A stretch of DNA of 64,000 nt, taken from the NCBI RefSeq assembly GCF_051903065.1, contig NZ_CP178438.1, one strand, 5' to 3'. This stretch comes from Escherichia coli (GTDB lineage Bacteria; Pseudomonadota; Gammaproteobacteria; Enterobacterales; Enterobacteriaceae). The position numbers were made by a program. This document shows, piece after piece, positions 35,401 to 38,400 of the stretch; position 1 is the stretch's first letter; the number at the start of each line of letters is the position of its first letter.

Positions 35401-38400
35401 GATGAAACAATATGAAGATGGTTATAACGTGAATGGATATAGCTGGGAAAATGAAACAATTGAGTATTTGTTGAATGATAAACAACTGACAGATAATCAC
35501 ATACCTGAATGGGTTAAAAAAAATGAAATTGCAGCATTCTGGTTCTGGTTAGTTATAATTAACACAGATCCCAAACTCCTTGGGGTTCGTAATGAATTAG
35601 GGTTCAATACAGCCATGATGGGGCTGATTCCTGCGGGGAGTATACCCATAACAACAATTCCTTCAGATCATGAAATGAGACTGGATGTTATAAGCAAATG
35701 GATTAATGCATTAATCCTTGACAATCAATCAGATTGCTTCATCTCAACAATGCATCAAAACTGGCTGCAGATCGAAAAGAGAAACGAAGCCAAATGGCTT
35801 AAAAAGAATACAGAACAACTCGAATGGGCATGGAAATATATCAATGCACGCATCCCGCACACGTATCTTTCCTGGTTTTATCCTGTAAGTGATAACGAAA
35901 GATACATTGCTATCGTAGTTTTACTAAAAATTTTATTCCCCGCAGATACACCATACTTACAGCAGCCAAAAGTACTTCACTATGGGGTTGCCGCAAAAGA
36001 AAAATTTTTCGACAAGATGCACAATGCATTCCGAAAACAGTTTACCGACGGAAAAAAAGATAAGCGGGTACAAATCAACGTTAAAATATCATCAGATGCA
36101 AAACGTACTCTGGACAGACTGACCAGAGAACTGAAAACAACACAACAGGCTGTCCTGGAACATCTGATTCAGAACCACAGGCTGGTGATTCAGAACCACA
36201 GACTGTATTAACTTTCACCACTTCTGCTCCTGCCGATTTTCTTCTTTTGGTAGTGTCTCCTGGCTGCGGATATCAGATACTTTTCCGTCATTTTGTTGCA
36301 GAACTCTTCAATGTAGTTAATCATTTTCTGGTGTGCTTTCAGCTTTTCTTCCCCGGGGGACGCTTTCAGATAAATGTCCTCCTTTTCCACAAGCGCATTG
36401 ACAAACTCCCCTAAACATCCCTGGTTATAAAGCGACGTGAAAAACAACACATCCCCCAGTCTCTCCAGTAACTGTGGTTTATCCCCGAAATGTTTTTTTA
36501 TACTTTCAAAAGGTTTTCTATTTTCCGGATCAAAAAAAACACTTAATCCCAGTCGCTTATATTCCTGGTAAAAAAGTTCAAACGTCGGGGATGCTGAACG
36601 GCAAATAAACGAAGACTGCGCCCATGGATTAAAATCTGTGACACGCCTCCCCTCCCGCACTTCCTGTCGTGTCAGCGGTGGTTCAGCAAACCAGGCGTCC
36701 AGCTCAGCCGAATCGTTATCCCTGCTCAAAACCTCATACAAACTGCCCGTGAACGGTTGAGCCGTTTGTTTTGTTGCTTCGCCTTCTGATTGTCTGAATC
36801 CATCCACTTTTCTCCGGATATTACGCGGAATCAGCATAAAAGGCGGGACATTAAGTGATAAACGTTTACCCGTCATGCGATACCATTGACCTACCTCAAC
36901 CTTAATCCGTGTATCTGACTTTAGCTCAAGTGCCATTATGTTAAGCAGGTACAGATAACGCACCGTATAACGATTAAAATGTTTCTCCGGATCAAACGAT
37001 TCTGACCGTTCTCCTCTGTACACGAGTCTGCTGCGCTTCAGTATTCGCAGAGTATATTTCCAGGCCGGACTTTTACAAATGGCGGTAACTCTGGCCTTAT
37101 TAACAATGTCGCGTAATGCATCAATCTGTTGTGCAGTCATCTCTTCCCTCCACACTTTGTCACTCCAGATTTTTTCACGCCCATATTACCTGAATGATAA
37201 ACCGGATTAGTGTGATCCGGTTCAGTGAAATCAACAGGATACCGGTATGTCATTCAGCCATTCTTCCCTCTCCGCACAAGTGAAATCATATCTGACGTTT
37301 CTTCCTGAAGAAATTCGCCAGAAAATCCTTGAACATCTCCACGGTGTTATTCATTACGAGCCCGTGATTGGCATTATGGGTAAATCCGGCACCGGCAAAA
37401 GCAGTCTGTGTAATGCCATTTTTCAGTCCCGTATCTGCGCCACGCATCCCCTGAACGGCTGCACCCGCCAGGCTCATCGCCTCACCCTGCAGATTGGTGA
37501 ACGCAGAATGACGCTGGTCGATCTGCCCGGCATTGGTGAAACACCGCAGCATGATCAGGAATACCGGGAGCTTTACCGTCAGTTACTGCCGGAACTGGAT
37601 CTGATTATCTGGATCCTGCGGGCTGATGAACGTGCGTATGCTGCTGATATTGCCATGCATCAGTTTTTACTGAATGAAGGTGCAGATCCCTCGCGTTTTC
37701 TGTTTGTTCTCAGCCATGCCGATCGCGTGTTTCCTGCTGAAGAATGGAACGACGCAGAAAAATGCCCGTCCCGTCAGCAGGAACTCTCACTGGCGACAGT
37801 AACAGCCCGGGTGGCCACCCTGTTCCCGTCATCATTTCCGGTACTCTCCGTTGCAGCGCCTGTCGGCTGGAATCTTCCGGCACTGGTGTCACTGATGATC
37901 CACGCACTGCCACCACAGGCAACCAGCGCGGTTTATTCACATATCCGGGGGGAAAACCGCTCTGAACAGGCCCGGAAACACGCACAACAGACTTTTGGTG
38001 ACGCCATCGGGAAAAGTTTTGACGACGCCGTTGCCCGGTTCAGTTTTCCGGCCTGGATGTTACAGCTTCTGCGTAAAGCCCGGGCCCGCATTATCCACCT
38101 ACTGGTCACACTGTGGGATCACCTGTTCTGAGCGCCCCGGAGTCCCCCGTGGCAACCGTATACCTTTACACGACAACGGATTACGGTAACCACTGCCGTA
38201 TACCGTCTGTCATTATCAATAACACGCTCTTTAATTTCAGAGGTCAGTCATGAATACCAGAATGCTTTTTCCCCTGCTGTTCACTGTGGCATCCTTCTCC
38301 ACCTCCGCCGGTAACTGGGCTGTCAAAAACGGCTGGTGTCAGACCATGACGGAAGATGGTCAGGCGCTGGTAATGCTGAAAAATGGCACGATTGGTATTA

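What the first reader, a model, noticed from the sequence alone, without database searches (positions are those of the whole stretch)
35402..37155. Convergent, stop-codon-overlapping pair of unknown genes in the variable cargo slot of the CP4-type island
Between the YfjJ-like genes and the YeeP-like GTPase (a position where related elements carry variable cargo) lie two unknown genes: a protein with a C-terminal RHH-like segment and an 18-bp tandem duplication at its 3' end, and a convergent 315-aa protein. Their stops overlap in the ttaa palindrome at 36208-36211. Neither matches anything I recognise, so they are candidates for an uncharacterised accessory function such as a defense or addiction module.
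Basis: inference. Interest (0 to 1): 0.5.

Follow-up and report, generated by a model that had tools for sequence, protein, structure and literature searches.

The report
Conserved backbone gene pair of CP4-type islands
The two unknown convergent genes are real, but they are not variable cargo: they are one of three forms of a nearly universal, uncharacterised backbone locus of a common E. coli genomic-island family, made of a DNA-binding (ribbon-helix-helix) protein and a basic protein whose predicted fold matches nothing solved, and they most likely control the island rather than defend the cell.

Summary
Gene A (35402-36211, +, 269 aa) and gene B (36208-37140, -, 310 aa) converge and share the TTAA stop overlap. 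A has a C-terminal ribbon-helix-helix (RHH) and a 21-bp tandem duplication.

The "variable cargo / defence or addiction" reading is not supported.
- The pair keeps the same position, between the Gp2/YfjJ-like gene and the YfjP-type GTPase, in five diverged E. coli alleles.
- The same pairing was seen in all eight distant loci examined, where B is only 22-29% identical.
- In E. coli, A-family places (819) match B places (821).
- Islands without the pair carry a longer B homolog (376 or 407 aa) in the same slot. Together, B-family genes account for about 2,405 of 2,508 GTPase-bearing places.
- IS3 disrupts A while B stays intact in two separate insertions, which argues against a toxin-antitoxin relation.
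- There are no PADLOC, Pfam or phage matches.

B gives a confident AlphaFold model (pLDDT 87.7) with no structural relative in PDB or BFVD. A conserved 27-bp element plus a hairpin lies upstream of every B-family gene examined with enough upstream sequence. Tandem GAATAGWTC repeats lie upstream of A.

Best reading (confidence about 0.4): this is an island control module of unknown precise mechanism.

The parts
35402..36211 (+). Gene A: 269-aa protein. It has an acidic, Trp-rich N-terminal domain (about residues 1-205, family motif KWLKKNxExxEWAWxY) and a basic C-terminal ribbon-helix-helix.
   Evidence: ORF and sequence. PGAP CDS in an identical locus. Homologs down to 22-29% identity share the motifs. 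dN/dS 0.3-0.5. pI 5.75 for the N-terminal part and 10.7 for the C-terminal part.
36053..36181 (+). RHH segment of A, about residues 218-260 (RVQINVKIS strand followed by two helices), of the CopB/RepA2 (RepB-RCR_reg) type.
   Evidence: weak for this sequence; 6 of 12 family members, best E 2e-5; PRK13702, 7e-5 and 2.6e-4 for homologs.
36165..36205 (+). 21-bp tandem duplication (2.0 copies, 95% match) that lengthens the tail after the RHH. It is specific to this allele class.
36208..36211 (.). TTAA: the overlapping TAA stops of the convergent genes A and B. There is no terminator between them.
   Evidence: The same TTAA junction is present in five E. coli alleles. Distant loci range from a 26-bp overlap to a 121-bp spacer, in two cases with a hairpin in the spacer.
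36208..37140 (-). Gene B: 310-aa basic protein (pI 9.6), mostly helical with a small beta element. Conserved motifs are SxAWxxTQxxLKRSG, IxPxxIRRK, GSLY, PxFxLxxLExxRLG and LExLGxxLFF. No known domain or fold.
37164..37190 (-). Conserved 27-bp element GGTAATATGGGCGTGAAAAAATCTGGA, with a TAATAT -10-like hexamer on B's strand. It lies 25-50 bp upstream of the B start codon, in the B/GTPase divergent intergenic region.
   Evidence: It occurs once in the 64-kb window, with 0 expected by chance. It is present upstream of B-family genes in loci whose proteins are about 25% identical. It is also present in the Klebsiella loci that have A but no B.
37200..37222 (.). Inverted repeat or hairpin, AACCGGAT-N7-ATCCGGTT, between the conserved element and the GTPase ribosome-binding site.
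   Evidence: Sequence. A hairpin at the same position has a different stem sequence in distant loci, with some compensatory changes. Support is modest.
35210..35251 (+). Four tandem GAATAG(A/T)T(C/A) repeats at 11-bp spacing, 150-190 bp upstream of A. This is a candidate operator for the RHH of A.
   Evidence: The only three exact RAATAGWTY matches in the 64-kb window all lie here. Similar AATAGWT clusters lie upstream of A in L002, L006 and L011, which share the VQINxKxS strand; they are absent where the strand differs, with one exception, L014.
37247..38131 (+). YfjP/YeeP-type GTPase, the first gene of the rightward operon (GTPase, DUF905, DUF932, antirestriction, RadC, DUF987, CbeA/CbtA and so on). 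It is transcribed divergently from B.
32920..33651 (-). Inovirus-Gp2 / YagK-YfjJ family (HUH-type) gene. It is the left neighbour of the locus, across a 1.75-kb AT-rich non-coding gap.

Best explanation
A and B are a conserved control module of the CP4-type integrative element itself, not cargo.

Shown:
- They sit at the junction between the AlpA / Gp2-like HUH / AT-rich non-coding part and the GTPase-antirestriction-RadC-CbeA/CbtA operon.
- The A+B pairing is kept across very deep divergence.
- The B family fills this slot in roughly 96% of E. coli islands that carry the GTPase.
- The segment behaves as a deeply diverged allelic cassette between conserved flanks.

Inferred:
- A is a ribbon-helix-helix DNA-binding protein that binds the tandem GAATAGWTC repeats in its own upstream region and autoregulates.
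- B is a basic protein of unrecognised fold. It acts at the conserved 27-bp element plus hairpin that separates it from the GTPase operon, setting expression of that operon or processing DNA there.
- A supplies or modulates DNA targeting for the short B form. The long B forms carry their own N-terminal Cys-rich (CxxxxC...LCxxHY) module and need no A.
- The three allele classes would then be specificity types of the same switch.
For: Synteny:
- Gp2-like(-) / non-coding gap / A(+) / B(-) / GTPase(+) is the order in five diverged E. coli alleles.
- All eight distant B loci examined have a convergent A homolog directly downstream. The longer contigs also show AlpA, Gp2 and GTPase or WYL neighbours (A homology E 1e-10 to 1e-18).

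Counts in 5,426 E. coli genomes:
- A 616 places plus A' 203 places gives 819, against 821 B places.
- B 821 + B-long-376 515 + B-long-407 1,069 gives 2,405, against 2,508 GTPase places.
- The long forms are B homologs: hhalign probability 97.8% and 96.0%.

Allelic replacement: homology between classes runs to about 34850 on the left and resumes at 37171 on the right.

DNA-binding indications:
- A has an RHH.
- The first 120 residues of B have pI 10.5, and the conserved residues are R/K.

Cis elements:
- A clustered repeat lies upstream of A.
- The 27-bp element is conserved beyond protein conservation.

Both genes are real. The reading frames are intact at dS 0.35-0.6 or more, with dN/dS 0.3-0.64. 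The B model is confident.
Against: - No experiment or homology links either protein to regulation.
- The B fold has no relative, so 'acts at DNA' rests only on charge and context.
- The candidate operator correlates imperfectly with the RHH strand residues: L014 has Q/N/K but no repeats.
- The 27-bp element persists in Klebsiella loci that lack B, so it may serve the GTPase operon or an origin rather than B.
- No -35 box accompanies the TAATAT hexamer.
- dN/dS near 0.5 is high for a housekeeping regulator.
- Place counts come from separate blastn searches, not from a locus-by-locus join.
Confidence: 0.4

Rival explanations
1. DNA-processing (oriT or rolling-circle origin) accessory module. The hairpin plus the conserved 27-bp sequence would be a nick or origin site for the island's Gp2-like HUH enzyme. 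It would sit directly upstream of a leading-region-like operon (antirestriction, RadC and so on). A would be an RHH relaxosome or origin accessory protein like TrwA, NikA, TraY or MbeC, and B a second accessory factor, or even an atypical nickase.
For: - An inverted repeat followed at fixed distance by a sequence conserved far beyond the flanking proteins is the usual oriT/dso layout (established knowledge); it is seen.
- The element persists where B is absent.
- RHH proteins are typical oriT accessory factors, and the A family hits replication-regulator RHH models.
- The adjacent operon resembles plasmid leading regions.
- B has an invariant Tyr135 plus conserved R/K/E residues.
Against: - There is no similarity to any plasmid oriT region at blastn sensitivity; only plasmids that carry the island segment itself match.
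- B has no HUH or other known relaxase motif and no structural relative.
- The iteron-like array next to the Gp2 gene (34330-34716) is an equally good origin candidate.
- The hairpin sequence is identical across E. coli allele classes whose A proteins differ.
Confidence: 0.2
2. One reading: a toxin-antitoxin, addiction or abortive-infection defence pair, with A as an RHH antitoxin/repressor and B as the effector.
For: - RHH domains are common in antitoxins (established knowledge).
- Both genes evolve fast, with dN/dS about 0.5 and deep allelic classes.
- Islands of this type carry defence systems.
- Short B was always found with A in the loci examined, whereas A occurs without B.
Against: - No PADLOC, Pfam, NCBIfam or PHROGs match for either protein.
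- The genes are convergent, not a co-transcribed operon.
- It is a backbone locus, not variable cargo.
- IS3 disrupts A while B stays intact and identical in two separate insertions at different sites in A.
- About two thirds of islands have a B-family gene with no A at all.
- The RHH is C-terminal, whereas in RHH antitoxins it is normally N-terminal (from memory).
Confidence: 0.12
3. Establishment or anti-defence factors expressed on entry into a new host. They would be functionally part of the antirestriction/RadC 'moron' module rather than regulators of it.
For: B lies next to and is transcribed divergently from the antirestriction-containing operon. Evolution is fast. The family is restricted to these islands; it is absent from phages and essentially absent from plasmids.
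Against: An RHH DNA-binding domain and a clustered operator-like repeat point to regulation. There is no similarity to known anti-defence proteins. The genes are transcribed separately from the operon.
Confidence: 0.08

Closest known systems
CopB/RepA2 (IncFII) and CopG-type RHH repressors (Pfam RepB-RCR_reg PF10723, RHH_1; NCBIfam PRK13702)
   Same: The C-terminal roughly 45 residues of A and its homologs match these models. They have a strand-helix-helix pattern and a basic character. Tandem 11-bp-spaced repeats lie upstream of the gene, as for RHH operators.
   Different: Those repressors are small (45-90 aa) stand-alone proteins. A carries a roughly 200-aa N-terminal domain with no known relative, and its RHH is at the C-terminus. 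All scores are below the curated cut-offs. No linked replication gene is shown to be controlled by it.
Relaxosome accessory RHH proteins next to oriT (TrwA, NikA, TraY, MbeC)
   Same: An RHH protein is encoded beside an inverted repeat plus a conserved sequence that precedes a leading-region-like operon. An HUH enzyme is encoded nearby.
   Different: There is no detectable sequence relation to those proteins, no identified nick site and no similarity to known oriT sequences. This is recalled knowledge used as a lead, not a test.
Immunity or regulatory regions of temperate phages and satellites (allelic, heteroimmune regulator cassettes between conserved flanks)
   Same: A deeply diverged allelic segment (A+B, A'+B', B-long-376, B-long-407) sits between flanks that are 80-97% identical. 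It includes DNA-binding proteins and their putative operators.
   Different: The genes converge rather than forming divergent repressor/antirepressor pairs. There are no HTH repressors. No immunity phenotype is known. Several copies of one class can sit in one genome.
Type II toxin-antitoxin modules with RHH antitoxins (for example ParD/ParE, which is present elsewhere in this island)
   Same: A two-gene unit with an RHH protein on a mobile element.
   Different: The arrangement is convergent, there is no toxin homology, A can be disrupted with B intact, and B-family genes occur without A.
Cargo of the yfjJ-yfjP interval of K-12 CP4-57 (AbpAB, YfjM, RnlAB)
   Same: Same nominal interval between a YfjJ-family gene and the YfjP-type GTPase.
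   Different: There is no homology: profile searches of CP4-57, CP4-6 and CP4-44 find neither A nor B. The K-12 islands lack the A/B locus.

Membership tests
Ribbon-helix-helix (CopG/Arc/MetJ) superfamily, RepB-RCR_reg / CopB-RepA2 type (protein A, C-terminus) | Profile match at or above the curated threshold | tested here: inconclusive
   Window protein: PF10723 14.5 bits against a cut-off of 21, and RHH_1 12.5 bits against 20.5. At family level, 6 of 12 members match PF10723 (best E 2e-5) and 5 of 12 match RHH_1. PRK13702 gives E 7e-5 and 2.6e-4 but far below its cut-off.
Ribbon-helix-helix (CopG/Arc/MetJ) superfamily, RepB-RCR_reg / CopB-RepA2 type (protein A, C-terminus) | Short beta-strand with alternating polar residues followed by two helices, about 45 aa, basic | tested here: met
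   RVQINVKIS, SDAKRTLDRLTRELK, TTQQAVLEHLIQN. This is the most conserved block of the family alignment. The C-terminal 64 aa have pI 10.7.
Ribbon-helix-helix (CopG/Arc/MetJ) superfamily, RepB-RCR_reg / CopB-RepA2 type (protein A, C-terminus) | Sequence-specific binding to repeated operator half-sites | not testable with these tools
   There is only a candidate site: four GAATAGWTC repeats at 35210-35251.
Type II toxin-antitoxin module | Adjacent co-directional genes forming one autoregulated operon | tested here: not met
   The genes converge with overlapping stops or a short spacer in all 13 loci examined.
Type II toxin-antitoxin module | One partner belongs to a known toxin family or fold | tested here: not met
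   B has no Pfam, NCBIfam, PADLOC or PHROGs match, no PDB sequence match and no structural match.
Type II toxin-antitoxin module | The toxin gene is not tolerated without a functional antitoxin gene | tested here: not met
   IS3 interrupts A while B is intact and identical in the EC12 clade and in STK39-3-E. B-long homologs occur with no A in about 1,580 places. This is indirect, because expression was not measured.
Known anti-phage defence systems | Homology to a component of a described system | tested here: not met
   PADLOC-DB v2.0.0 gives no hit for either protein at E up to 1.
Known anti-phage defence systems | Patchy, cargo-like presence among otherwise similar elements | tested here: not met
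   B-family genes occupy the slot in about 2,405 of 2,508 GTPase-bearing places. The pairing is kept at 22-29% protein identity.
Backbone of CP4-type (AlpA / Gp2-HUH / YfjP-GTPase / DUF932 / ArdB / RadC / CbeA-CbtA) integrative elements | Conserved position and orientation relative to backbone genes across diverged elements | tested here: met
oriT/relaxosome module | Relaxase-type catalytic motifs, or similarity of the cis site to a known oriT | tested here: not met
   B has no relaxase domain and no fold match. The intergenic element matches only copies of the island on plasmids. Nicking itself cannot be tested here.

The most novel reading that the evidence does not exclude
A, B and the two long B forms are idiomorphic specificity alleles of a previously unrecognised master switch of CP4-type islands. 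B would be a new-fold DNA-acting protein, a sensor-regulator or even an atypical nickase. It would work at the ultra-conserved 27-bp element plus hairpin, which would be the island's origin or entry point for the leading-type operon. A would be its RHH targeting or antagonist partner. Identifying this switch would make the induction, replication and transfer of these very common but uncharacterised elements experimentally tractable; they carry defence islands, Ag43 and CbtA toxins.
Probability: 0.15. Interest if true: 0.7.

Novelty: new variant of a known kind. Interest (0 to 1): 0.45.

Why it matters
The B-family locus studied here lies next to a YfjP-type GTPase gene that is found in about a third of complete E. 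coli genomes (1,871 of 5,426). Islands of this type carry defence systems, adhesins, toxin-antitoxin pairs and, as in this window, resistance genes. How they are regulated, replicated or moved is essentially unknown; a 2025 preprint calls them uncharacterised MGEs (PMC12458937).

This work shows three things:
- The A/B pair is not cargo. It belongs to a near-universal locus at the boundary between the replication/excision part and the antirestriction operon.
- The B family is a structurally orphan protein family.
- A short non-coding element upstream of B is more conserved than any neighbouring protein.

Together these give concrete, testable handles on the control of this element family. The result also removes the locus from the list of plausible new defence systems.

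Tried and rejected
- **First AlphaFold run on B.** Using only close E. coli homologs gave pLDDT 51, which is unusable. A model was obtained only after the exhaustive profile search supplied homologs at 22-29% identity.
- **afdb50 fold library.** It was not available.
- **Species-representative genomes.** Scanning them with the A profile returned one locus only. An earlier attempt failed for lack of a conserved stretch.
- **Sequence searches against PDB.** Nothing for A, B or the N-terminal extension of the long B form.
- **B as a YfjH relative or another K-12 CP4 gene.** Rejected: profile searches of CP4-57, CP4-6 and CP4-44 find nothing.
- **A and B as paralogs.** Rejected: hhalign probability 0.2%.
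- **Rfam.** No RNA family between 24000 and 46000.
- **PIME integrative mobilizable elements** (10.64898/2026.01.12.698999). This is a different element family, built on repA/trbJ/trbL, so it was not used.
- **Literature search by protein accession.** Found nothing.
- **The stop overlap as a required feature.** Rejected: distant loci range from a 26-bp overlap to a 121-bp spacer, two of them with terminator-like hairpins.
- **Similarity of the intergenic element to plasmid oriT regions.** None found.
- **Phage origin.** No tblastn hit for either protein in 50,697 phage records.
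Full report
**What is there**

The window carries a CP4-type island. An identical stretch is annotated in E. coli H9Ecoli. The local order is:
- a YfjI-like gene and an inovirus-Gp2/YfjJ-like gene on the minus strand (the latter at 32920-33651);
- a 1.75-kb AT-rich stretch without credible ORFs;
- gene A (35402-36211, +, 269 aa);
- gene B (36208-37140, -, 310 aa);
- the rightward operon: YfjP/YeeP-type GTPase (37247-38131), a 225-aa protein, DUF905, DUF932, antirestriction, RadC, DUF987, CbeA/CbtA, DUF5983, DUF957 and DUF4942.

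Details of the observation:
- The two stops overlap in TTAA at 36208-36211.
- The 3' repeat in A has a 21-bp unit: 36165-36205, two copies with one mismatch.
- The B start is best placed at ATG 37140, behind a GGAGGG Shine-Dalgarno. PGAP uses it and most close homologs in the alignment start there.
- G+C is 34-42% over A and 41-47% over B, against 50-58% in the operon.

**Are they genes?**

Both reading frames stay open in alleles that differ at synonymous sites by dS 0.35-0.6 or more.
- dN/dS is 0.30-0.50 for A and 0.48-0.64 for B. The neighbouring GTPase gives 0.13-0.18.
- Each gene has a Shine-Dalgarno sequence.
- B gives a confident AlphaFold model once distant homologs are in the alignment: pLDDT 87.7, pTM 0.85.

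They are real protein-coding genes that evolve fast.

**Homology**

For the window proteins, Pfam, NCBIfam, PADLOC and PHROGs give nothing significant.
- B has no hit at all.
- A has only sub-threshold hits on its C-terminal 45 residues, to RHH models: RepB-RCR_reg 0.034, RHH_1 0.16, RepC_IncLM 0.002.
- Across the A family the RHH assignment holds. Six of 12 members match RepB-RCR_reg (best 2e-5) and 5 of 12 match RHH_1.
- NCBIfam RepA/PRK13702 (the IncFII CopB/RepA2 type) scores 7e-5 and 2.6e-4 for two homologs. Newer PGAP runs name one allele 'replication regulatory RepB family protein'.

In the 5.8-billion-protein index, both families appear only in Escherichia and close relatives.

The exhaustive profile search with B found 49 proteins, about 17 of them full-length at 22-29% identity. 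None has a Pfam domain.

The B model has no structural relative:
- Foldseek against PDB and BFVD gives a best E of about 1.

There are no PDB sequence relatives and no phage homologs. Plasmid hits are limited to a few records that carry the island segment itself, plus a few distant A homologs, two of them in Klebsiella records that are probably chromosomal.

A and B are unrelated to each other.

**Not cargo: conserved synteny**

The order Gp2-like(-), non-coding gap, A(+), B(-), GTPase(+) recurs in:
- ST131 (L002);
- AR_0374 (L003; there A is only 28% identical, E 3e-26, while B is 66% identical);
- strain A24 (L005);
- strain 2779 (L006).

All have the same TTAA junction.

Every one of the eight distant B homologs whose contigs I read has a convergent 257-320-aa gene directly downstream (one gene call is cut off by the contig end at 193 aa). 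For the partners compared with A directly (L011, L014, L016), BLASTP gives E 1e-10 to 1e-18, and they share the KWLKKN...WAW motif and the RHH. The other partners are assigned by position and weak RepB-RCR_reg hits. On the longer contigs the pair is flanked by AlpA, YagK/YfjJ-Gp2 and zinc-ribbon genes on one side and by the GTPase or a WYL regulator on the other.

The junction varies from a 26-bp overlap to a 121-bp spacer, and two spacers hold a hairpin. So the convergent pairing is conserved, but the stop overlap is not required.

**Counts in 5,426 complete E. coli genomes**

| Gene | Genomes | Places |
|---|---|---|
| A | 560 | 616 |
| A' (diverged form) | 196 | 203 |
| B | 742 | 821 |
| GTPase | 1,871 | 2,508 |
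| B-long, 376 aa | 462 | 515 |
| B-long, 407 aa | 976 | 1,069 |

- A plus A' gives 819 places, against 821 for B.
- In islands without A/B, the homology to the window stops at 37171-37172.
- In those islands a single minus-strand gene of 376 or 407 aa fills the slot.
- Both long proteins are B homologs: HMM E 1e-16 and 8e-11; hhalign probability 97.8% and 96.0%.
- Each has a roughly 90-residue N-terminal extension with a CxxxxC...LCxxHY pattern and a basic linker. I read this as a zinc-binding, probably DNA-binding module; that is inference, with no database support.
- The three classes sum to 2,405 places (821 + 515 + 1,069), about 96% of GTPase places. The counts come from separate searches, so this is approximate.

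Between classes, the flanks are 80-97% identical up to about 34850 on the left and from 37171 on the right, while the segment between them is replaced. It behaves as a deeply diverged allelic cassette.

Two other arrangements were seen:
- K-12's three CP4 islands have neither gene. CP4-57 holds abpBA, yfjM and rnlAB in the interval. This is what made the slot look like a cargo site.
- Klebsiella islands and one E. coli plasmid have a longer A homolog and no B.

**Against toxin-antitoxin or defence**

Besides the lack of homology and the backbone status:
- The genes are never co-directional.
- IS3 has split A in the EC12/XH989 strains, and a second IS3 sits in A in STK39-3-E, at a different site. 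In both cases B remains intact and identical.
- Most islands have a B-family gene without A.

**Cis elements**

1. Four GAATAG(A/T)T(C/A) repeats at 11-bp spacing lie at 35210-35251, 150-190 bp upstream of A.
   - The three exact RAATAGWTY matches in the whole 64-kb window all lie here.
   - Similar clusters lie upstream of A in L002, L006 and L011, whose RHH strand is VQINxKxS.
   - They are absent where the strand differs, with one exception, L014.
   - This is a plausible RHH operator.
2. A 27-bp sequence, GGTAATATGGGCGTGAAAAAATCTGGA (37164-37190 on B's strand), lies 25-50 bp upstream of B.
   - It is single-copy in the window, with none expected by chance.
   - It is recognisable upstream of B-family genes whose proteins share only about 25% identity, including both long forms.
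   - It also persists in the Klebsiella loci that lack B.
   - It is preceded by a short inverted repeat (37200-37222) whose stem sequence differs between distant loci, with some compensatory changes (modest support).
   - It contains a good -10 hexamer (TAATAT) on B's strand but no -35 box.
   - Its conservation beyond the proteins, and its persistence without B, mean it could instead be an operator, a promoter of the GTPase operon, or an origin or nick site.
   - It has no counterpart in plasmids beyond copies of the island.

**Mechanism**

Shown:
- position, pairing, distribution and allelic structure;
- the RHH in A;
- the basic character of B (pI 9.6; first 120 residues pI 10.5), with invariant or near-invariant W27, R36, R109, R110, K111, Y135, E193, R196 and R295;
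- the two clustered or conserved cis elements.

Inferred:
- A binds its upstream repeats and autoregulates.
- B acts at the conserved intergenic element to control the adjacent operon or process DNA there.
- A complements the short B form, which lacks the Cys-rich extension of the long forms.
- The allele classes are specificity types.

I give this control-module reading about 0.4. The oriT/origin-accessory variant gets about 0.2, toxin-antitoxin or defence about 0.12, and an establishment or anti-defence role about 0.08.

**Comparison with the known, and novelty**

A's C-terminus works like CopB/RepA2/CopG repressors but does not reach their curated thresholds, and A carries a large unknown N-terminal domain. 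B belongs to no described family or fold.

The element family is mentioned in a 2025 preprint as uncharacterised MGEs that carry defence islands and a RadC/ArdB/CbtA 'moron' module (PMC12458937). I found no description of these two genes.

I rate the finding a new variant of a known kind: a mobile-element control module built on an RHH protein with an orphan partner. It is of moderate interest. It is ordinary in that it is backbone rather than a new defence system. It is useful in that it defines an unannotated, widespread, structurally orphan family and a conserved cis element, both of which can be tested directly.

Noticed in passing
window 34330-34716 (within the 33652-35401 non-coding gap): There is an iteron-like array: about nine AAAACACTT(A/G)T units interleaved with ATGTGTATA-like units. 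It lies in a 1.75-kb AT-rich, A-skewed gap with no credible ORF, between the Gp2/YfjJ-like gene and A. The gap up to about 34850 is 76-93% conserved in all allele classes, including islands without A. It is a candidate replication or transfer origin for the HUH protein.
   Followed up: partly
window 37164-37222: A 27-bp element (GGTAATATGGGCGTGAAAAAATCTGGA on the minus strand) plus an adjacent inverted repeat are conserved beyond protein conservation upstream of every B-family gene examined with enough upstream sequence. They are also present in the Klebsiella loci that lack B. Its strand of action and its function (promoter, operator or nick site) are unresolved.
   Followed up: partly
L024:5752-6975 and L025:5762-6892 (E. 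coli Nord1 and FEX669): Islands without A/B carry 407-aa or 376-aa B homologs with an N-terminal CxxxxC...LCxxHY extension. No database recognises the extension. They are found at 1,069 and 515 places in E. coli genomes.
   Followed up: partly
L022:1703-3848 and L023:1864-3773: IS3 elements are inserted in gene A at two different sites, one in the EC12/EC15/EC18/XH987/XH989 strains and one in STK39-3-E. Gene B is left intact in both.
   Followed up: yes
L007:6635-7732, L009:6342-7429, L008:6743-7696: Klebsiella aerogenes and K. pneumoniae islands and an E. coli plasmid carry longer A homologs (up to 365 aa; the K. pneumoniae copy is split in two). In the two Klebsiella islands the A homolog lies directly upstream of, and in the same direction as, the GTPase, with no B gene. 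On the E. coli plasmid it precedes a DUF932 gene instead.
   Followed up: partly
window about 13000-23000 and 41800-44000; identical locus L001: The same island region carries acquired resistance genes: floR, tet(A), strAB and sul2 on the left. In L001, an ISEcp1-blaCTX-M-55 insertion splits the cbtA toxin gene.
   Followed up: no
alignment A1 (B homologs from E. coli): B alleles are mosaics. The N-terminal roughly 145 residues are nearly invariant, while the middle and C-terminal blocks occur in different combinations. This suggests recombination within the gene.
   Followed up: no
L004:14570-14710 and L026 upstream of ykfA: In K-12, the regions upstream of yfjP and ykfA share a different conserved stretch (TTGAAAAAATCTTCAGATA...) followed by a GC-rich hairpin. 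The run GAAAAAATCT also occurs in the 27-bp element, but on the opposite strand relative to the GTPase. The significance is unknown.
   Followed up: no
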